This document shows positions 3,001 to 64,000 of a stretch of 64,000 nt of DNA, one piece after another. The stretch lies in the IMG/VR virus record IMGVR_UViG_3300027852_000036; one strand, written 5' to 3'. The notes under the pieces were generated by a model, which searched no databases, was not told the DNA's origin, and saw nothing but the letters and a program-made list of their open reading frames with translations. Source of the stretch: a virus. Every line of letters begins with the position of its first letter. Positions within the stretch are counted from its first letter, which is position 1. The translations under genes and the position numbers were made by a program.

Positions 3001-5298
3001 TTTCCTAGTTCGATCTATCGCAGCGTTTAAATCCCTAGTTACACGGTATCGCTGCTGACTAGTAATGCCCGCGTCGGCACCCCCGGCTGCTTCGCCTCGT
3101 CCACGGCTCCTAGTACCTTCAATAGCTTTCAAAGCCTTCTGCGAACTGAGTATGGTCGCTTGTAGTTTTTCTACCCTACCGGCATTAGCAGTAACTTCTA
3201 AGGAGAACTCACCGGTGTTAATTAACTCTTCTAACCCTTCCAGTTCTGTCTTAAACTCTACTAGCGAGGAAGAGTTAAAGGCCGATGATACTTTATCTAG
3301 CTGAGTATTACCTTCGAAAGACTTTAAGTACTTAGTGGTTTCTCTTTCTAAGTCTTCAATAGCCTTAGCGTACCCTTCAGTCTTTCCTTGAGCAGTTTGA
3401 GCAACAACAGCCTGAGCCTCAATTGCGGCCTGAGCTTCTTTAAGTATCGCAGGAATTTTAGCGAAGTCTTTGGGATCTACGTTTAATAGGTCCTCTAGTC
3501 GCTTTTGTAGCTTGGTCTGTTTTAGTGCTTTAGCTCCGTCCAAGATCTCCTTCTTAACATCTTGAAACTTCTCTAAAGTATATTGCAGGTTACGTTCTGG
3601 TACCTTTTCGAAAGCGTCTATGGTCGCCGTTAAGCCGCTACCAAGGTTTACTAAGTTATTAGCCAGTAATTTGGTGAGCCTTGTTGGTTCTATAAATGCT
3701 TCAGTTGCTGCGGTACTTAACTCTTTAAACCCTTCTAAAGGTTTCCTCAATTCCTCTGAGTAGCCTTTAGTGGCCTTAGTTAGATCTTCTATACCTTTTG
3801 GGTTATATAACCCAGTGGCAGCACCTATTCTGTCAAAGACACTTACGAGCGGCTCTAGTATACCTAGTGCGCTTGCTAATTTCTCTAAAGGTTTTGCGAA
3901 TAACTGGAAAGCTATCGTGGCCATAGATATCCACCCCGCCAGTTTAAATACTAGTCCACCGAGAGCTCTGATACCGCCCGCAGCCTTACCGAAAAGCTGC
4001 ATAGAGGCAGAGGCTGCAACTAATAGAGGACTCATGGTACGTAGTTGACTATTTACCCCGGCCATTACTGCCTGAGCTTCTATACCTCCTACCATACCTG
4101 CTGAGAAAGCTACCTGCATAGAGGTTCCAGCTAACCTTGCGCCACTAGCTACAGCACTTAATGAGGTATTGAAAGAGGTCATCGTTCCAGTAAGGGCCCT
4201 AGTAGAGAGGGATGACCTTATAGTGGCCTTCTCGAACTGAGCTAGGTTTGCTGTATGTTTTTCTACTATCTTTGTAGATAAGGAGTTATGCCAATCAGAA
4301 AGGGCTGGTATTGCCTGTTTTACTAGTCCTCTAACCAATAAGAACATACCTGCTTTAAGTGCTCCTGCACTTTCGGTAAACACACCTATAACACCAGTAG
4401 CGTCGATAAATCCTGTAACCATAGAGAGTACACTGTCTTTCAAGTCTACCATCTGTGAAGCTACTTTACTATAGGGATTGTTTGCTGCTTCTTTACCTAT
4501 CCGCTCGAATACTTCTAAACCTTGACGCATAGCTTCATTAGAGAACGCTTGACGTCTCTGTAACTCAGATAACTCAGACTGTGCTAAGTTATTCGCGTCA
4601 GCATACTTACGAGTAGCTTGTTCAATCTTAACGAAGATACCCAATTCATCAAGTATTTCAGGTTCCATCTTAGCGATACCCTTGGTGAGACGTTCTACGG
4701 AATCCGTAATATCCCTACCGAAAGCTTTAGAAGCTCCAAGAGCTACCTTTGCTAAGTCTTTTGTGAATTTAGTATCAAACCCTGCTGCAGCAGCCTGAGA
4801 AGCGAGCTTCATAGCAGTTGCTAGGGTGATTGTGTTATTGGTGCCTTCCTTCAGTGCTGCGGACATAGAGGTAAGTGATCTACCTGTCTGGGCTGCAAGA
4901 GACTCCTGTGCTTTAATTACGCCTTTTAAATCAGCAGACTGCTTCAACTGATCGAAGGCAGCGCCTACAGCCCATATATTAGCGGCTACTGTTGCGTATA
5001 CGTGTACTAAACCGCCCAACCCTTGAGACTGTTTAGCGAAATCCTTGGCACCCCTGCTAGAGGTGTTGCTGAAAGACTTGGCGGCCCGATCGGCTTCGCT
5101 GATCGACGTAGTGTAAGACTTAACACCTTCTGTAGTCTTTCCAAGAGCCTTACCAGCTCCTTGAGTAAATTTAGTAGGGTTTATTGGTTTCTCTAATTTA
5201 TCTAGAGACGCGCTTAATTTGCTAATTCCATCAGTTACCTTCTTCAGACCTTTGTCTGTTATCTCGATAACTACCTTTCTTTTCTCGTCTTTAGCCAT
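1..5298 (-). CDS. Tail tape measure protein (T5 pb2-like), runs off the left edge of the window
   Basis: Missing from the ORF track because it has no stop in the window. ATG at 5298 reads MAKDEKRKVVIEITDKGL...SRGAKDFAKQSQGLGGLVHVYATVAANIWAVGAAF...EILDELGI, which is T5 pb2-like. It lies directly after the tail chaperones. The frame was only spot-checked for stops (up to 1766 codons). Confidence 0.85.
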   Translation of the reverse strand, partial: MAKDEKRKVVIEITDKGLKKVTDGISKLSASLDKLEKPINPTKFTQGAGKALGKTTEGVKSYTTSISEADRAAKSFSNTSSRGAKDFAKQSQGLGGLVHVYATVAANIWAVGAAFDQLKQSADLKGVIKAQESLAAQTGRSLTSMSAALKEGTNNTITLATAMKLASQAAAAGFDTKFTKDLAKVALGASKAFGRDITDSVERLTKGIAKMEPEILDELGIFVKIEQATRKYADANNLAQSELSELQRRQAFSNEAMRQGLEVFERIGKEAANNPYSKVASQMVDLKDSVLSMVTGFIDATGVIGVFTESAGALKAGMFLLVRGLVKQAIPALSDWHNSLSTKIVEKHTANLAQFEKATIRSSLSTRALTGTMTSFNTSLSAVASGARLAGTSMQVAFSAGMVGGIEAQAVMAGVNSQLRTMSPLLVAASASMQLFGKAAGGIRALGGLVFKLAGWISMATIAFQLFAKPLEKLASALGILEPLVSVFDRIGAATGLYNPKGIEDLTKATKGYSEELRKPLEGFKELSTAATEAFIEPTRLTKLLANNLVNLGSGLTATIDAFEKVPERNLQYTLEKFQDVKKEILDGAKALKQTKLQKRLEDLLNVDPKDFAKIPAILKEAQAAIEAQAVVAQTAQGKTEGYAKAIEDLERETTKYLKSFEGNTQLDKVSSAFNSSSLVEFKTELEGLEELINTGEFSLEVTANAGRVEKLQATILSSQKALKAIEGTRSRGRGEAAGGADAGITSQQRYRVTRDLNAAIDRTRKEIDTIVTNAVVTLPSDIISSEALRNVQGDIAKIGEKTLRTIGLSVTEAKRLLELAKTPTEGLDSLSNNLDQLREFSSLTDKTREGLERLTGSMEKQRNIALANKDLQASTYESQLKYEAELRTLKASGKAGEVGDTEVRVAAKALELGRERVLLENKIATIRNKNAALQAKIDGLGSRDAAPKAIKDAIDLQNKSIATNERSIAVLTKQKVALQDNAEVRLELFTLEIEQAERMNTLKTSQGLALQQLQQEYDLRSSIRGVESDRFIMLAEMREQDTAAMQAKIQLKTFEEEADIKKLEQQAKINQALEVTAALEAKIALLRGRAPAEVQEALAAAQAQLSLERAALENLEKTSSVTKDLLKFKGELATIDAPFKDIGSALEGLDDGPFKKWIDGSNQFAKVTAKNNKVLSKLKEDENSTDADIQKQRLKGFGDQASAMVSMFEEGSSAAKAAHAIEQAIHIARLAMEVQAATAHIASVASAAAADQATIPGKIASGFGAIVSEGGIPGLAIGAGFIAMMASLMGGSGGSSAGGDGGQALVKKQLANHEANLGENGITNVMDLETNALVESINDLVEIDTRLFSSMYDLQGSIVELGKSFKSVGSSAKQAFGGLTDRGVAAQFDNLPEIGPDLAIGSPKRRAERTIEDVLLQPNLELQGSQINPANITKASDYIKNSFDNLTALVITKLTISKTSTGAIKSASIDEFTQNIAGELSDDLSSAFINTIDTTFDLIMALDPGAHFGKASKSFQQDLVDNMISSFESGTLFEGNVGNAGFVDQNVLASDFNTSISLDGLSSSEAADRISGYFNSLSDSMIEQLFRPIDDFRRAGEEIGDTLARLVEETAAAVNAFAYLGFEGSMFDPSVMNSAGVQANLAFQKGLFEGFEDAGVWASLAEEFTSVILTEAEALENKVSVLGTDVGAGLERSISQALDVTNISGAALLGNELQTLSMDLESGAITSKQALLGFRTVWDQYSKVLGAAGEGVDLSGNLITPDTLE

Positions 5299-19706: not shown

Positions 19707-19913
19707 TTATAGCAACAATACTGATTTAATTGCAACTAAAATTAACGAAAAGTTTAAAATAATTAATGCCGTGCATTCTCCCTTTAATACTCCCCATAAA
19801 ATCCACAGTGCGTTGCCTCCTATCGCAACGTACCAACCTAATAACAATCCCTCTCCTATTAAGTAAAGACTAATCAACGTACCCGCCATCGCTAGCCACT
19901 CGATGCATTTCAT
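19707..19913 (-). CDS. Small multi-pass membrane protein, PnuC/PQ-loop half-transporter-like
   Basis: IEWLAMAGTLISLYLIG...LGWYVAIGGNALWILWG; about 68 aa, hydrophobic. Confidence 0.5.
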   Translation of the reverse strand: MKCIEWLAMAGTLISLYLIGEGLLLGWYVAIGGNALWILWGVLKGECTALIILNFSLILVAIKSVLLL

Positions 19914-20837: not shown

Positions 20838-21914
20838 CTAATCGGATGTGCAAGCAGTATCTGAAAAATATCTTTCTAGCGGGATTCTTAGGCTGGACTC
20901 TATTCTGTCCACTCCCATCGCTTCCTCAGCCTGAAAACTCAAGCTCCAAAAGTCAAGGATATTATCAAAGTAGGTAGGTACCTTCTTGTCAGCCAAGTAC
21001 CTAAGTCTGGCCACTGCCCCAGATACAGAACTATCTAGGGAGGCCCAATTGTCAGAAAAACACCAAGCCCCACCCTTCTTACTATTACTAGGTATGAAGC
21101 AACGCTCGACGTAAGAATCCCAATCCCACAGGTTAGGATCACTCAGCCCAACTGTCTCAGCGTCAATCATAGGTATACCGGCGTCTATTCCGTGATTAAT
21201 GAGACTCTTCCCAATATCAGGTACCTCACTCTCAAGATGCTCAGCCAGTTTTTTAAGGTTTGCTATCTTCATTAGATCCGGCACTTTCCGAACCTTTCCA
21301 AGCTTCGTTCCTAACGTCTTTATGTACCTCGCCTGCAATGTCCTGCAATATTCAGGCATTGCTCCAAATGACAACACCTGCCCACGTAATATGTCTAACT
21401 CCTCTTTGGTACCGGGCTCAGCGGCCTTGCGAAGGTCTTCTTGAAAAGGTGTTATAGGGCCACCAGCAACGGGATTCCCTCCCTTAATCATTAGCCAGCT
21501 GTCGAATTGCCTTCTGTGTATAAAAAACTTAGGTACCTTCTTGTCGATAGCTAAAAGTATCCGTAACCCGGCTCCTAGCCTAGAAGTGTCCTCGCCGTCC
21601 CAATTGAAACACCACTCATAGTCACTAAAGCTACCTAGGTCAGTATGCTTGAAAAAGCAACGCCGAGCATAGGAGTCCCAATCCCAATAAGCGGGGTCAG
21701 CATGTAAACCAGTTTCACTCGTCAGTAGAGGTATTCCAGCTTCGGGGCCATAAAACAGTGCACTAGGTTTTTCTGAAGTTTCTGAACGCAGCGAGTCTTT
21801 CTCGCAGTACTGCCCAATATCCGAGTGTCCTGAAGCCTCAGCTAGGCCGATTAGATGCTTAGCCAACTTACGTAGGTTCCCAACCCTGAAGCCGTTAAAA
21901 ATGCTCATAGCCAC
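20838..21914 (-). CDS. Protein with two tandem degenerate family A domains
   Basis: Twice NLxKLAxHL...G..AGIP...W..DWDSY..RCF...WCF..W...D....GA..R...L.DKKVP. Confidence 0.7.
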   Translation of the reverse strand: MAMSIFNGFRVGNLRKLAKHLIGLAEASGHSDIGQYCEKDSLRSETSEKPSALFYGPEAGIPLLTSETGLHADPAYWDWDSYARRCFFKHTDLGSFSDYEWCFNWDGEDTSRLGAGLRILLAIDKKVPKFFIHRRQFDSWLMIKGGNPVAGGPITPFQEDLRKAAEPGTKEELDILRGQVLSFGAMPEYCRTLQARYIKTLGTKLGKVRKVPDLMKIANLKKLAEHLESEVPDIGKSLINHGIDAGIPMIDAETVGLSDPNLWDWDSYVERCFIPSNSKKGGAWCFSDNWASLDSSVSGAVARLRYLADKKVPTYFDNILDFWSLSFQAEEAMGVDRIESSLRIPLERYFSDTACTSD

Positions 21915-22060
21915 TACCTCGTCATTTCGTCTATATATGCGTCCCTAGTCATATGGCCGGAAACGTTCTCATTGTGTACGTCTAGCGCGACATCAACGGA
22001 GACATTATAGAGCACTATGGCTGCTAACGCTACTAATATTAAAACTTTTAAATTGCTCAT
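21914..22060 (-). CDS. Small N-terminally hydrophobic protein, paralog of 17403-17531
   Basis: MSNLKVLILVALAAIVLYNVSVDVAL...; TTGGCA-N17-TATTAT promoter and GGAG RBS. Confidence 0.65.
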   Translation of the reverse strand: MSNLKVLILVALAAIVLYNVSVDVALDVHNENVSGHMTRDAYIDEMTR

Positions 22061-36989: not shown

Positions 36990-37094
36990 TTACATCACCT
37001 GCAAACTAATACCGCATAGATATAGCGCAGCAAAAAAGCTACCCGCGAACATTACTGTAAGCCCTACAATCATTAACTTATCTTTAATACTCAT
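36990..37094 (-). CDS. 34-aa membrane peptide, first gene after cassette 6
   Basis: Hand-translated MSIKDKLMIVGLTVMFAGSFFAALYLCGISLQVM; AAGGA RBS. Confidence 0.55.
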   Translation of the reverse strand: MSIKDKLMIVGLTVMFAGSFFAALYLCGISLQVM

Positions 37095-39184: not shown

Positions 39185-39388
39185 CTAAAGCCCCCAAATT
39201 AGGTAAATTAAGTAGCCTGCAAAGCCTGTATAAAGGCCGAAAGCAGCAACCGCTAGAGCGGCTACAAACGCAGCAGGTACTTTTAGTAAGTAATTTGGAA
39301 GCCTACCATCATACGCCGCAACTACTAGAGTTGAGAAGTATAGGAATGCGACTACTGATGTAAGTAGCACTTGTTCTGGTATATTCAT
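39185..39388 (-). CDS. Small two-helix membrane protein
   Basis: 67 aa, two hydrophobic stretches. Confidence 0.6.
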   Translation of the reverse strand: MNIPEQVLLTSVVAFLYFSTLVVAAYDGRLPNYLLKVPAAFVAALAVAAFGLYTGFAGYLIYLIWGL

Positions 39389-61768: not shown

Positions 61769-61960
61769 ATGGACGGATTTTCAGTTGTATCAGAACATGA
61801 GCTGTACCTTATTAGGGAAACGCTGGATGAAGATACTATAGAGGAGACTCACGATAGTAATGGATATTACTTGACTGATATTGAGACAGGAACTGTACTA
61901 GGGTATTCTAGTAGACTAGAGGCTAGGGTTCTAACGGAGTTATTGGGGAATCTTTGGTGA
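61769..61960 (+). CDS. Small acidic hypothetical protein
   Basis: 63 aa; GGAGG RBS. Confidence 0.6.
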   Translation: MDGFSVVSEHELYLIRETLDEDTIEETHDSNGYYLTDIETGTVLGYSSRLEARVLTELLGNLW

Positions 61961-62916
61961 AAGTATTATTTATATCTGACCACCATATAAAGCTGGGTCA
62001 GCGTAAAGTCCCGGTAAGTTGGGCTAAGAACAGATTTCAGCAGTTGTGGGATAAGGTAGTAAAAGTAGCTACCGATAAAGGAGTAGCGACCATATTCCAT
62101 GGAGGCGATATATTCGATGACGTACCTTCTATGGCGGAACTAGAAGTGTACGGGAACATGCTTAACGCATTCGCAGATTTTGATAACATTTTAATGCCGG
62201 GAAACCATGAGGCATTAAAGAAAGGAACTTCATTTCTGGAACACTTGCAACCATTGACACCTTTTCCGATAGTGTCTAAGTGGATGCCAGAGGAGGAAGT
62301 GTTAGAAAGGTTTTCAATACCTAATACTAGCATTCTACCCTACACGGACTTGAAGAAGAATATATGGCATAAAGGGGCAAAGAGTAAGATACTATTTACT
62401 CATGTACGAGGTGAGATACCTCCCCATGTAATCCCCGAGGTACCATTAGAGTTATTCGATGGTTGGGAGACAGTCTACGCAGGAGATTTGCATTCACATG
62501 AATTGTGTCAGCGTAATATAGTCTACCCAGGAAGCCCTATTGGTACGACGTTTAGAAGATCAGAGGCTAAAGGCACTAACGGAGTGCTTATTATAGACAC
62601 GGAAACTAATGAGTGGGAGTTTGTCGATTTAGATATGCCCCAACTGATTAAAAAGACCGTGTACTCTGAAGATGAGATAATTCCCACAACCCCGCACCAT
62701 ACCGTGTATGAATTAGTTGGGGCCGAGACTTCCATGAGCAAGGTAGAGCATTCCGATCTGGTTGATAAAAAGATCAGCAATGTAGACTTAGTATCGGAAA
62801 CAGTTACTATAGTAGAAGCGTCAGCGGAAGAAGAGTTATCCGAGTATTTAACACAAAAAGAGGGTATAACAGACCCTAGCCCATATGTAGGGCTGTTTAA
62901 GGATATAATATTATGA
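61957..62916 (+). CDS. D12: Recombination nuclease, SbcD/Mre11-like (T5 D12-like)
   Basis: SDHH, GGDIFD, GNHE, FTHVRGEIPPHV, GDLH, YPGSP. Confidence 0.9.
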   Translation: MKVLFISDHHIKLGQRKVPVSWAKNRFQQLWDKVVKVATDKGVATIFHGGDIFDDVPSMAELEVYGNMLNAFADFDNILMPGNHEALKKGTSFLEHLQPLTPFPIVSKWMPEEEVLERFSIPNTSILPYTDLKKNIWHKGAKSKILFTHVRGEIPPHVIPEVPLELFDGWETVYAGDLHSHELCQRNIVYPGSPIGTTFRRSEAKGTNGVLIIDTETNEWEFVDLDMPQLIKKTVYSEDEIIPTTPHHTVYELVGAETSMSKVEHSDLVDKKISNVDLVSETVTIVEASAEEELSEYLTQKEGITDPSPYVGLFKDIIL

Positions 62917-63757
62917 GCACACCAGATATGGTAGCAGTAGGTATAGTAGTATTCCTATCAACATTAGCGTTAATAGCAGCATTTAATAAGGAGAAATAAA
63001 TGAGCATAATGGAAATAATTGAACTAGCAGTAGGCATTATAGTAGTATCCGTGATAGGGCACGCAGTTGGTATAGGCGTCCTGCATTTGATTAAGGGAAA
63101 GAAATGAGCGCACTTGAGTTAGCAGAATTCGTAGGATATTTTATGTTAGGTTTACTTATTATCTACGGTATTGACGAGTTTAGGAAGAAGTAACATGGGA
63201 CACGCTTTATTAGTAGTATCTCTAGCCTGTATGGGCATGGTAGTGGTGCTATTAGTGTTGGACTTTTTAGGAGATTAGGGGGTTATATGAAACAATTTTT
63301 TAGTAAGTTAATAACGATAGTAATAGGATGGCCCATTGCAGTAGTGCTAATGAACGTAATATTAGTACTAGGTCTAATATTTGGCATCTTCAGTTTAGTA
63401 GGGGTTACGACTCCTAGAGACAAGTTGGCGCTAGTGGTAGATAGCGCTATGATCAAACTAAGAGACCCAAGGTAGGAGGAAACATGGAATTTGTAGTAGA
63501 GGCAGTATTAATTATTGCTGCGTCAATTTCGGGCATGGTTATTATATCAATGTGGTGGTTTAACTAACATGCGTAAGTTGATTAGGAAGCTAGCTATAGT
63601 AGCAATAGGCTGGCCTTTGGCTTTAATGACAGTCAACATAGTAATGTTTGTTGGACTGTTATTGGCCTTAGCCAATGTGGTGGGGTTTTATACCCCCCGC
63701 TTCAGTCTAGCGGCCTGGTTAGTTCAGGCAGCTATTAAAACTAAGGGGGCTCCATGA
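62913..63757 (+). CDS. Cluster of seven tiny hydrophobic ORFs (62913-62999, 63000-63107, 63104-63193, 63195-63278, 63287-63475, 63484-63567, 63569-63757)
   Basis: Hand-translated; 27-62 aa each with a transmembrane-length hydrophobic core; abutting or overlapping start/stop codons; most have purine-rich RBSs. Confidence 0.7.
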
Positions 63758-64000
63758 TAACACTGAAGGTATTAAAATGGGGTAATATGTTCTGCTATGG
63801 TGAGGACAACAGTCTTGACTTTACTGAGCGGGGAGCAGTTACACAAATAACAGGTCAGAACGGTGTAGGTAAATCCAGCATCAATCTGGTATTAGAAGAG
63901 TTACTATTCAACAAGAATAGTAGGGGAATTAAGAAAGCCGACATTCCTAATAGAGACCTTAATGCTACGACTTATTGGGCTAGTTTAACGTTTTCTATTG
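63754..64000 (+). CDS. D13: SbcC/Rad50-like recombination ATPase (T5 D13-like), truncated by the window edge
   Basis: MITLKVLKWGNMFCYGEDN...GQNGVGKSSI...LFNKNSRGIKKADIPNR. Confidence 0.88.
   Translation, partial: MITLKVLKWGNMFCYGEDNSLDFTERGAVTQITGQNGVGKSSINLVLEELLFNKNSRGIKKADIPNRDLNATTYWASLTFSI

What the first reader, a model, noticed from the sequence alone, without database searches (positions are those of the whole stretch)
62913..63757. Seven membrane micro-proteins inserted between the D12 and D13 nuclease subunits
Seen: MSTPDMVAVGIVVFLSTLALIAAFNKEK (28 aa), MSIMEIIELAVGIIVVSVIGHAVGIGVLHLIKGKK (35), MSALELAEFVGYFMLGLLIIYGIDEFRKK (29), MGHALLVVSLACMGMVVVLLVLDFLGD (27), a 62-aa ORF, MEFVVEAVLIIAASISGMVIISMWWFN (27) and a second 62-aa ORF. 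They are packed stop-to-start. The two 62-aa ORFs are paralogs (IGWP...N...VG..TPR). Five of the seven are absent from the ORF track. Established: the SbcD/SbcC-like D12 and D13 genes are neighbours in T5. Inference: a translationally coupled battery of single-pass peptides (superinfection exclusion, lysis timing, or inhibition of membrane defence sensors or transporters) sheltered inside an essential operon.
Basis: partly seen in the sequence, partly recalled or inferred. Interest (0 to 1): 0.65.

Follow-up and report, generated by a model that had tools for sequence, protein, structure and literature searches.

The report
Seven tiny membrane-protein genes splitting a phage nuclease operon
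A marine T5-like phage known only from metagenomes carries seven back-to-back genes for 27-62-residue membrane peptides, inserted exactly where its relatives' two recombination-nuclease genes overlap; the genes look real, but they have no relatives anywhere and their function is unknown.

Summary
Seven same-strand ATG ORFs (28, 35, 29, 27, 62, 27 and 62 aa) fill 98% of window 62913-63757. They lie between D12 (SbcD-like) and D13 (SbcC-like).

Evidence that they are genes:
- Each has a Shine-Dalgarno-like purine-rich motif, and spacers are -4 to +8 nt.
- In all seven, the proposed frame scores best of six on the phage's own codon usage.
- No dinucleotide shuffle out of 2000 gives such a chain.
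- Six have a clear hydrophobic helix; o3 is borderline.
- The two 62-aa proteins are paralogs (35% identity, E 9e-14), with conservation at the protein level.
- The two 27-aa ORFs in front of them are weakly alike, which suggests a duplicated 27+62 module.

The insert is derived. In about 900 Demerecviridae records and nine marine viral contigs, D12 and D13 abut or overlap. In the window, the sequence at the ancestral D13 start (aATGAt) now reads aAGGAt and sits where o1's ribosome-binding site is expected.

Nothing homologous was found in Pfam, PHROGs, NCBIfam, PADLOC, 5.8 billion or 1.84 billion proteins, or the phage records.

Function is inferred only: an early-expressed accessory membrane cassette. 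T4 also has two small ORFs between its genes 47 and 46, but those are soluble. This scan earlier found similar micro-membrane-gene arrays on other DNA, in E. coli prophages between the lysis and terminase genes. Interest is moderate.

The parts
61957..62916 (+). D12 / SbcD-like nuclease subunit (319 aa from GTG 61957; the mechanical ORF starts at TTG 61954)
   Evidence: Pfam Metallophos, E 1.9e-8. 39-42% identical to Demerecviridae and marine D12 over nearly full length. The GTG-start form is the one on record. The tail YVGLFKD-IIL* aligns with the relatives' ILGxF[NH]D motif, but the ~9 tail codons that follow the motif in relatives are replaced by three codons (IIL) and a stop.
62913..62999 (+). 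o1, 28 aa, one hydrophobic helix (uncharged core 6-25), acidic N flank, basic C flank
   Evidence: The ATG overlaps the D12 stop (ATGA). The AAGGA motif upstream sits where relatives have the D13 ATG. In-frame codon score +0.34 per codon, best of 6 frames. Shares a 20-nt in-frame repeat with o2 (D2).
63000..63107 (+). o2, 35 aa, one hydrophobic helix (core 9-31), with GxxxG-type motifs, acidic N flank, KGKK C flank
   Evidence: AAGGAG motif; the ATG directly follows the o1 TAA. Codon score best of 6 frames.
63104..63193 (+). o3, 29 aa, the weakest hydrophobic segment (15 uncharged residues, 9-23), acidic N flank, RKK C end
   Evidence: AAGGGA motif; ATGA overlap with o2. Codon score +0.36 per codon, best of 6 frames.
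63195..63278 (+). o4, 27 aa, hydrophobic helix (1-22), acidic C end; first gene of module A
   Evidence: AGGAAG motif; 1 nt after the o3 stop. Best 19-residue hydrophobicity 2.98. Codon score best of 6 frames. Weak similarity to o6 (z 4.3, empirical p 0.004).
63287..63475 (+). o5, 62 aa: basic N end, 36-residue uncharged core with GWP...N...G, TPR hinge, amphipathic C-terminal helix; second gene of module A
   Evidence: GGAG/GGGGG motifs. Paralog of o7. AF2 helix 2-38 and helix 43-59, pLDDT 77.6. The collection holds only this exact sequence, seen on 3 contigs from four sources.
63484..63567 (+). o6, 27 aa, hydrophobic helix, acidic N flank, WWFN C end; first gene of module B
   Evidence: AGGAGG motif; 8 nt after the o5 stop. 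Codon score best of 6 frames.
63569..63757 (+). o7, 62 aa, paralog of o5; second gene of module B. Its stop overlaps the D13 ATG.
   Evidence: identity by codon position 47/68/42%, dN/dS about 0.44. GGTGG motif; 1 nt after the o6 stop.
63754..64000 (+). D13 / SbcC-like ATPase subunit, N-terminal 82 aa only (runs off the window)
   Evidence: P-loop/AAA_23/SMC_N-type weak Pfam hits. 59-66% identical to the D13 N-termini of marine relatives. Head MITLKVLKW matches the relatives' MITLK.LKW.

Best explanation
The interval is a lineage-specific accessory cassette of seven real genes for small proteins that insert into the host cytoplasmic membrane.

Origin. It arose by insertion of foreign or new DNA exactly into the ancestral D12/D13 overlap. 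It then grew in place by tandem duplication: a 27-aa + 62-aa two-gene module is present twice, and o1/o2 are probably duplicates too.

Expression (inferred). The cassette has no detected promoter or terminator of its own. It would therefore be transcribed with the early replication/recombination genes, and translated from individual SD-like sites, helped by stop-start coupling.

Action (inferred). The peptides would reach the membrane early in infection. There they would act on the envelope or on host membrane proteins for the phage's competitive benefit. My first guess is a block on entry of other phages' DNA or of a membrane-based host defence. My second is control of lysis timing.

Shown: gene-like anatomy, hydrophobic helices, paralogy with protein-level conservation, and the derived, precise insertion. 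Inferred: early co-expression, membrane insertion, and the functional class.
For: - Gene reality. There is an SD-like motif plus an ATG before every ORF, with spacers of -4 to +8 nt. The chain covers 98.3% of the interval, and 0 of 2000 shuffles reach that. In all seven ORFs the proposed frame has the best codon log-likelihood of the six frames, 0.18-0.36 per codon. Windows of this phage's long genes score 0.27 +/- 0.16 in frame and -0.55 out of frame.
- Protein-level selection. o5 and o7 are 35% identical without gaps (E 9e-14). Identity is 68% at codon position 2 against 47% and 42% at positions 1 and 3 (Fisher p 0.003). dN is about 0.63 against a near-saturated dS of about 1.45.
- Duplication. 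The order is 27-62-27-62. o4 and o6 are similar (z 4.3). o1 and o2 share a 20-nt in-frame repeat.
- Membrane character. Six ORFs have a best 19-residue Kyte-Doolittle mean of 2.4-3.0, and o3 has 1.76. Charges flank the cores. AF2 models o5 as helices.
- Derived insertion. D12 and D13 abut or overlap in 3 Demerecviridae isolates and 9 marine IMG/VR contigs, and by coordinates or annotation across a spread sample of 916 phage records. The relatives' D13 start aATGAt corresponds to aAGGAt in the window's D12 tail, directly upstream of o1.
- Operon context. Every gene I assigned from 41.4 kb to the window end lies on the + strand. They include thymidylate synthase, ribonucleotide reductase, ligase, helicases, primase, polymerase, SSB-like, D12 and D13. 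There is no + strand terminator-like site, and promoter-like hits are at chance level.
Against: - There are no expression data.
- No relative carries the insert, so conservation of frame and hydrophobicity across phages could not be tested. The only close relative, a 1355-bp contig with 93% D12 identity, ends before the interval.
- All seven are orphans in every library searched.
- Short hydrophobic ORFs arise easily in T-rich frames. Codon scores on 27-35 codons carry limited weight each.
- The o4/o6 similarity is weak; after correction for 21 comparisons p is about 0.08.
- Nothing in the data points to one function over another.
Confidence: 0.6

Rival explanations
1. Lysis-timing module. The duplicated pair (a 27-aa one-helix protein plus a 62-aa protein with basic ends) is a holin-like or antiholin-like two-component timer encoded away from the lysis cassette. 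o1-o3 would be further holin-like helpers.
For: o5 and o7 have basic N and C flanks around a 36-residue uncharged core, and a charged amphipathic C-terminal helix. This resembles small two-helix N-in/C-in holins. In F1-cluster mycobacteriophages a 2-TMD protein (88 aa) and a 1-TMD protein together set lysis timing (PMC13056207 abstract). In D29 the 1-TMD partner is encoded elsewhere in the genome (bioRxiv 10.64898/2026.08.27.747656 abstract). Clusters of up to four holin-like TMD genes are described in Gordonia phages (PMC9671378 and PMC11385102).
Against: No endolysin or other lysis gene is adjacent; the neighbours are D12 and D13. The cassette lies in the early replication block, which would make holins early. 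No holin family of Pfam or PHROGs is matched. AF2 draws one continuous helix 2-38, not a hairpin.
Confidence: 0.15
2. Translated filler or proto-genes. The inserted DNA has no function of its own. Selection only keeps ribosomes moving from D12 to D13, or the ORFs are young de novo genes under weak or no selection.
For: All seven are orphans and occur in only one phage lineage. The interval has slightly lower G+C than the window as a whole (39.6% against 42.9%). Hydrophobic peptides are the commonest product of T-rich random ORFs. The serial stop-start arrangement would preserve coupling to D13.
Against: D13 and every ORF have their own SD-like motif, so coupling is not needed. o5 and o7 keep specific residues (GWP, N23, G29-L30, VG, TPR) after diverging to 35% identity, with excess conservation at codon position 2. 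Two rounds of duplication were retained in a compact genome.
Confidence: 0.15
3. Nuclease partners. One or more of the peptides tether or regulate the D12/D13 (SbcCD-like) complex at the membrane, and they are encoded between the subunits so that amounts stay matched.
For: The position is exactly between the two subunit genes, with coupling-type junctions. T4 also keeps small ORFs (46.2, 46.1) between its SbcD-like gene 47 and SbcC-like gene 46, and a 46-aa hydrophobic ORF, 47.1, just upstream of 47. From memory, not checked here: a membrane-associated DNase activity dependent on T4 genes 46 and 47 was reported by Mickelson and Wiberg in 1981.
Against: About 900 T5-type phages and nine marine relatives manage with D12/D13 alone. 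T4 46.1 and 46.2 are soluble, acidic and unrelated. Seven different peptides are more than a tether would need.
Confidence: 0.06
4. Not genes. The interval would be non-coding spacer, a decayed larger membrane-protein gene, or an assembly artefact.
For: Two of the seven (27 aa each) are not on record as called proteins. There are no homologs.
Against: 0 of 2000 shuffles give the ORF chain. The best-frame codon signal is present in all seven. An SD-like motif precedes each ATG. Internal paralogy argues against a single broken gene. Identical proteins are recorded from four sources on three contigs. There is no Rfam match.
Confidence: 0.04

Closest known systems
Tandem arrays of micro membrane-peptide genes in E. 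coli mEp021-type prophages
   Same: There are several back-to-back, same-strand genes for 20-60-residue hydrophobic helices. Each has its own ribosome site, spacing is coupling-type, annotation mostly misses them, and function is unknown.
   Different: Those arrays lie between the lysis cassette and terminase of temperate phages, and they vary as cassettes among many relatives. This one lies in the early replication/recombination block of a lytic T5-type marine phage, includes two 62-aa proteins, and has no relative carrying it. No sequence likeness was found. I did not re-examine those arrays.
Holin-like TMD protein clusters of actinobacteriophage lysis cassettes (Pollenz et al., PMC9671378; LysF1a/LysF1b, PMC13056207)
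   Same: There are multiple adjacent small TMD proteins, including a pairing of a possibly two-helix N-in/C-in protein with a one-helix protein.
   Different: Those sit beside endolysin genes, and genetics shows they affect lysis. Here there is no lysis-gene neighbour, no family match and an early-operon position.
T4 ORFs 46.2 and 46.1 between genes 47 (SbcD-like) and 46 (SbcC-like), and 47.1 upstream of 47 (NC_000866)
   Same: Small accessory ORFs sit between the two subunit genes of the phage Mre11/Rad50-type nuclease, in the same orientation and with overlapping junctions. 47.1 is annotated as a predicted membrane protein of 46 aa.
   Different: 46.1 (68 aa) and 46.2 (87 aa) are acidic, with no hydrophobic segment in their translations. 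There are two ORFs, not seven, and the phage family is unrelated.
Early phage membrane proteins that exclude superinfecting phages (T4 Imm and Sp, T5 Llp, HK97 gp15; from general knowledge)
   Same: They are small, early-expressed and membrane-located, and they are dispensable accessory genes.
   Different: They are single genes of about 60-100 aa or more, and Llp is a lipoprotein. No sequence match was found here, and there is no lipobox in o4 (S-L-A-C fails the -3 position).
Bacterial small inner-membrane regulators and type I toxins (AcrZ, MgtS, KdpF; Ldr, Ibs, TisB; review PMC12648545)
   Same: They match in size (under 50 aa), in having a single helix with charged ends, and in having small-xxx-small motifs.
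   Different: The AcrZ Pfam hit of o5 is far below threshold (14.2 against 26.2 bits). No antisense RNA or separate promoter was detected. Those genes are cellular, not part of a lytic phage's early operon.

Membership tests
Phage tandem arrays of small membrane-protein genes (a descriptive kind, not a homology family) | Three or more adjacent same-strand ORFs of about 20-60 aa, each with a hydrophobic helix | tested here: met
   There are seven ORFs. Six have a best 19-residue hydrophobicity of 2.4-3.0 and o3 has 1.76.
Phage tandem arrays of small membrane-protein genes (a descriptive kind, not a homology family) | Own ribosome-binding sites and coupling-type spacing | tested here: met
   An SD-like motif precedes each ATG, and spacers are -4 to +8 nt.
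Phage tandem arrays of small membrane-protein genes (a descriptive kind, not a homology family) | Protein-level selection, or conservation and turnover among relatives | tested here: inconclusive
   Only the internal paralogs o5/o7 show it. No relative carries the cassette: it is absent from all 12 fetched loci that span the junction, and the one close relative is truncated.
Holins / holin-like TMD proteins | One or more TMDs plus a charged C-terminal tail | tested here: met
   o5 and o7 have a 36-residue uncharged core and a charged amphipathic C-terminal helix. This feature is not specific to holins.
Holins / holin-like TMD proteins | Gene lies in a lysis cassette next to an endolysin | tested here: not met
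   The neighbours are D12 and D13. The block from 41 to 64 kb holds nucleotide-metabolism and replication genes.
Holins / holin-like TMD proteins | Match to a described holin family | tested here: not met
   No Pfam, PHROGs or NCBIfam hit at E up to 0.1-1.
Holins / holin-like TMD proteins | Membrane permeabilisation that sets lysis time | not testable with these tools
   This needs expression and lysis assays.
Superinfection-exclusion membrane proteins (Imm, Sp, Llp type) | Sequence relationship to a known exclusion protein | tested here: not met
   No hit in Pfam, PHROGs or NCBIfam for any of the seven. No tblastn hit for o5 or o2 against 50,697 phage records.
Superinfection-exclusion membrane proteins (Imm, Sp, Llp type) | Exclusion phenotype on expression | not testable with these tools
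   This needs a host and challenge phages.
Type I toxin-antitoxin small hydrophobic toxins | Antisense or overlapping regulatory RNA with its own promoter | tested here: inconclusive
   No Rfam match. The single - strand promoter-like site in the interval scores 9/12, within a chance-level total. Novel antisense RNAs cannot be excluded.
AcrZ (PF10766) | Pfam score above the gathering threshold | tested here: not met
   o5 scores 14.2 bits against a cut-off of 26.2, E 0.033.
T4 46.1 (DUF5487) / 46.2 | Sequence or compositional likeness to the T4 inter-subunit ORFs | tested here: not met
   The T4 proteins are acidic and have no hydrophobic helix. Only the genomic position is shared.

The most novel reading that the evidence does not exclude
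The cassette is functionally tied to the nuclease it interrupts. One or both 27+62 modules would anchor or gate the D12/D13 SbcCD-like complex at the inner membrane, for example at the DNA entry or replication site. This would be a membrane-tethered phage Mre11/Rad50-type nuclease with dedicated micro-protein subunits. T4 47.1/46.1/46.2 would be a distant positional parallel.
Probability: 0.06. Interest if true: 0.7.

Novelty: new variant of a known kind. Interest (0 to 1): 0.38.

Why it matters
Small membrane proteins are the least annotated and least understood part of phage genomes. Here seven of them, all orphans, can be dated as a derived insertion, because the junction they split is an overlapping gene pair in every relative examined. 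The old D13 start site can still be recognised, now reading as the ribosome site of the first new gene. This gives a clean natural example of two things. First, a compact lytic phage can add accessory genes inside a core operon without a promoter of their own. Second, such genes can multiply by tandem duplication. With the arrays this scan found earlier in E. coli prophages, it suggests that batteries of micro membrane peptides recur in unrelated phages. If one function were found, it might apply widely. The practical value is limited for now: the phage is known only from metagenomes, its host is unknown, and no function can be assigned.

Tried and rejected
**Searches for relatives carrying the insert**
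- megablast of 61900-64000 against phage records: no match.
- D12 peptide-pattern scan of IMG/VR: none.
- D12 scan of JGI metagenomes: one 1355-bp contig with 93% D12 identity, cut at D12 residue 248.
- D10 helicase scan of IMG/VR: 12 marine loci at 42-44% identity. The nine that reach the junction have no insert.
- No whole genome is held for this window.

**Searches for homologs**
- 62-aa protein by word-index search of 5.8 billion proteins: self only.
- Profile of both paralogs against 1.84 billion representatives: the two selves plus P0008. P0008 is a 722-aa soluble protein with six repeats; its summed weak matches to the C-terminal helix I regard as spurious.
- tblastn of o5 and o2 against phage records at E up to 10: none.
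- Pfam, PHROGs, NCBIfam and PADLOC: nothing above noise.
- ESM Atlas: best feature score 0.80, which is chance level.

**Rejected readings**
- A broken multi-pass membrane-protein gene: each piece has its own SD-like motif and ATG, and there is internal paralogy.
- A structured RNA: no Rfam hit.
- A lipoprotein: the o4 S-L-A-C sequence does not fit a lipobox.
- A mobile cassette with its own terminator-promoter unit, of the kind noted elsewhere in this genome: none is present here.

**Side check that failed**
- A test for paralogy between two other small hydrophobic ORFs (17403 and 21914, - strand) found no alignment, but I trimmed the wrong end of both, so it is not informative.
- A scan of relatives' loci for small hydrophobic ORFs gave only scattered hits, many of them probably out of frame inside large genes. 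None formed a cluster at the D12/D13 junction.
Full report
**What is there**

Window 62913-63757 (+ strand) holds seven consecutive ATG-initiated ORFs of 28, 35, 29, 27, 62, 27 and 62 codons, here called o1-o7. The fourth starts at 63195.

The junctions are:
- ATGA overlaps at D12/o1, o2/o3 and o7/D13
- TAAATG at o1/o2
- a 1-nt spacer at o3/o4 and o6/o7
- 8-nt spacers at o4/o5 and o5/o6

Every start codon has a purine-rich Shine-Dalgarno-like motif in front of it: AAGGA, AAGGAG, AAGGGA, AGGAAG, GGAG/GGGGG, AGGAGG and GGTGG. D13 has AAGGGGG.

**Is it more than chance?**

- The best chain of non-overlapping ATG ORFs of at least 25 codons covers 98.3% of the interval. In 2000 dinucleotide-preserving shuffles the mean was 17% and the maximum 69%. 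The opposite strand reaches 44%.
- I trained a codon model on 34 long ORFs of the window. For all seven ORFs the proposed frame scores best of the six, at +0.18 to +0.36 bits per codon. Thirty-codon windows of the phage's long genes score 0.27 +/- 0.16 in frame and -0.55 +/- 0.29 out of frame.
- A scan of the whole 64 kb for ORFs of 20-75 codons with an SD-like motif and a 19-residue Kyte-Doolittle mean of at least 1.9 finds 19. Six of them lie in these 845 bp.
- o3 falls just below that cut (1.76; only 15 uncharged residues). It is the least certain membrane peptide.

**Internal relationships**

o5 and o7 are paralogs. They share 21 of 60 residues without a gap (E 9e-14), and the score is 18 standard deviations above shuffled controls. 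The invariant positions include G14-W15-P16, N23, G29-L30, V38-G39 and T42-P43-R44.

Nucleotide identity is 47%, 68% and 42% at codon positions 1, 2 and 3. Position 2 against the other two gives Fisher p = 0.003. The Nei-Gojobori estimates are dN about 0.63 and dS about 1.45, which is near saturation. The two copies have therefore diverged under constraint on the protein.

The ORF in front of each copy is 27 codons long. The two (o4 and o6) are weakly alike: z = 4.3, empirical p = 0.004, before correction for 21 comparisons. The order 27-62-27-62 therefore reads as a duplicated two-gene module.

o1 and o2 share a 20-nt stretch at 85% identity. It is offset by two codons and so stays in frame, encoding AVGIVV and AVGIIVV. 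o1, o2 and o3 all begin with ATGAGC. This suggests further, older duplication but does not prove it.

**Predicted proteins**

- o1-o3 have acidic N flanks and basic C ends (KEK, KGKK, RKK) around one hydrophobic stretch. By the positive-inside rule this would put the C terminus in the cytoplasm.
- o4 has an acidic C end.
- o6 has an acidic N end.
- o5 and o7 have basic residues on both sides of a 36-residue uncharged core.

AlphaFold2, run on the two-sequence alignment, gives helix 2-38, a break at the conserved G-x-x-T-P, and helix 43-59 (mean pLDDT 77.6). One long membrane helix plus an amphipathic helix is possible. So is a tight hairpin with both ends inside. I cannot decide between them.

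**Surroundings**

Every gene I assigned from 41.4 kb to the window end is on the + strand. In order they match:
- thymidylate synthase and dihydrofolate reductase
- phosphoesterases
- both ribonucleotide reductase subunits
- a helicase
- an NAD ligase in two ORFs
- a D5-like regulator
- DnaB-like helicase and primase
- a protease-like protein
- DNA polymerase
- D10-type helicase
- an SSB-like protein
- D12, the seven ORFs, and D13

This is the T5-type early replication block. Between 60.5 and 64 kb there is no + strand terminator-like site, and promoter-like matches are at the level expected by chance. No Rfam family matches. Co-transcription with D12 and D13 is therefore the simplest reading, but it is inferred.

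**Relatives**

D12 is 39-42% identical to the D12 of Demerecviridae isolates and of marine viral contigs. The 82 residues of D13 in the window are 41-66% identical to theirs.

The D12-D13 junction in relatives:
- In Yersinia phage phiR2-01 and Enterobacter phage KKP_3711, D12 and D13 abut or overlap.
- In Vibrio phage 294E48.1 they also abut, although D13 appears split there.
- In nine marine IMG/VR contigs fetched through the D10 helicase, they abut or overlap.
- In three of those contigs I read the ORFs directly. D12 (318-319 aa) overlaps D13 (597-600 aa) by 32 nt.
- In a spread sample of 60 of the 916 phage records that match the D13 N-terminus, that match lies under both the D13 and D12 annotations in most enterobacterial and several Vibrio phages. 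For MW865341.1 and OZ196862.1, the two oyster-Vibrio records listed in both searches, the coordinates show adjacency.

No record has an insert at this junction.

**Junction anatomy**

In the marine relatives the D13 ATG sits inside the D12 tail motif I-L-G-x-F-[NH]-D, as aATGAt, and D12 runs on for nine more codons. The window's D12 tail reads Y-V-G-L-F-K-D and then I-I-L-stop. The matching bases are aAGGAt, which lie at SD distance from the o1 ATG. The D13 head (MITLKVLKW) is intact 840 bp downstream.

The overlapping arrangement is therefore ancestral. The cassette was placed exactly into the overlap. The former D13 start context now reads as a ribosome site for the first new gene.

**Homology**

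None was found.
- Pfam, PHROGs, NCBIfam and PADLOC give nothing above noise. The AcrZ hit of o5 scores 14.2 bits against a threshold of 26.2, and a PADLOC '2TM effector' hit has E 0.068.
- The word-index search of 5.8 billion proteins returns only the query.
- A profile of both paralogs against 1.84 billion representatives returns the two selves and P0008, a six-repeat soluble protein whose summed weak matches I regard as spurious.
- tblastn of o5 and o2 against 50,697 phage records finds nothing at E up to 10.
- The ESM Atlas gives only chance-level neighbours.
- The exact sequences of o1, o2, o3, o5 and o7 are on record on three contigs. o2, o3, o5 and o7 come from JGI/IMG, ENA, Logan and MetaClust, and o1 from JGI/IMG only. 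The phage is therefore seen repeatedly, but without variation that could be used.
- The only diverged relative, at 93% D12 identity, is a 1355-bp contig that ends inside D12.

**What it most likely is and does**

The evidence supports seven real, translated small genes whose products are hydrophobic helices. They were acquired as, or grown into, a cassette inside the D12/D13 overlap and are expressed with the early genes. I put about 0.85 on 'real genes for membrane peptides'.

Function is inference. By analogy with characterised early phage membrane proteins, the most likely class is an accessory function at the host inner membrane. That would be exclusion of competing phages, or interference with a membrane-based defence or other host membrane protein. 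Lysis timing is the main alternative.

For lysis timing, the pairing of a one-helix protein with a possibly two-helix protein recalls LysF1a/LysF1b of F1-cluster mycobacteriophages (PMC13056207). Such partners can be encoded away from the lysis cassette (D29 preprint abstract). Against it stand the early-operon position, the lack of any lysis neighbour and the lack of a family match.

A role as partner of the nuclease is the most interesting reading and cannot be excluded. T4 keeps 46.2 and 46.1 between genes 47 and 46, and the hydrophobic 47.1 lies upstream of 47. But the T4 inter-subunit proteins are soluble and unrelated, and hundreds of T5-type phages lack any such gene.

A filler or proto-gene reading is weakened by the residue-specific conservation between o5 and o7, and by the individual ribosome sites.

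**Comparison with what is known**

Phage small membrane proteins are a known, poorly understood class. Clusters of holin-like TMD genes are described in actinobacteriophage lysis cassettes (PMC9671378). This scan has already noted tandem arrays of 20-47-residue membrane-peptide genes in E. coli mEp021-type prophages, between the lysis and packaging genes (AI notes that I did not re-test).

This case differs in three ways:
- its host phage is a lytic, marine, T5-type phage
- it lies inside the early recombination-nuclease operon
- its content includes a duplicated 27+62 module

It is also unusual in that the insertion event can be reconstructed to the base. I class it as a new variant of a known kind, of moderate interest.

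Noticed in passing
L002:4972-6849 (Vibrio phage 294E48.1, MW824419.1): D13/SbcC appears split. A 162-aa ORF carries the N-terminal P-loop part (matched by the window's D13 N-terminus at 4978-5214). After a 145-nt gap comes a 414-aa ORF annotated 'exonuclease SbcC'. This could be a frameshift, an intervening element or an assembly error.
   Followed up: no
window:61679-61751: A perfect 12-nt inverted repeat (TAAGCCGCTACA / TGTAGCGGCTTA) with a 49-nt loop lies in the 96-nt gap between the stop of the SSB-like gene (61672) and the ATG of the 63-aa ORF at 61769, which is the ORF just upstream of D12. No T-run follows it. It may be a regulatory or RNA-processing hairpin.
   Followed up: no
window:61769-61960: A 63-aa acidic ORF lies just upstream of D12, and its stop overlaps the D12 GTG (GTGA). 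It is conserved at 76% identity in the only close relative (L004:427-588), so it is probably a real gene. It has no family match.
   Followed up: partly
window:17403-17531 (-), 19707-19913 (-), 21914-22060 (-), 36990-37094 (-), 39185-39388 (-): Five further small ORFs (34-68 aa) have an SD-like motif and a strong hydrophobic segment. They are scattered singly in the pre-early and accessory regions, so this phage has more candidate small membrane proteins outside the cassette.
   Followed up: no
window:50798-52572: The NAD-dependent DNA ligase is encoded as two consecutive ORFs (310 aa and 253 aa, 80 nt apart). They match the N- and C-terminal parts of the ligase PHROGs.
   Followed up: no
window:40891-41277 (-): A 129-aa protein has a strong DUF5675 match (E 2.7e-28). 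It is the last - strand gene before the + strand replication block. No endolysin or holin was recognised among the 30 window ORFs scanned against Pfam or PHROGs; the large ORFs at 1-23 kb were not scanned.
   Followed up: no
L017:8445-8585 (-) (T4 NC_000866, ORF 47.1): T4 has a 46-aa, strongly hydrophobic ORF immediately upstream of its SbcD-like gene 47, overlapping it. Two soluble small ORFs lie between 47 and 46. This is a positional parallel to the window's cassette.
   Followed up: partly
P0008 (722 aa, from the representative library): A soluble protein with six roughly 100-residue repeats. Each repeat contains G-I-T-T-S-R-D-Q-L-A-A-S-L-A-W-L, which resembles the TPR hinge and C-terminal helix of o5/o7. 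The summed E is 2.8e-10, but each repeat scores only weakly. I judge it to be chance plus repetition.
   Followed up: partly
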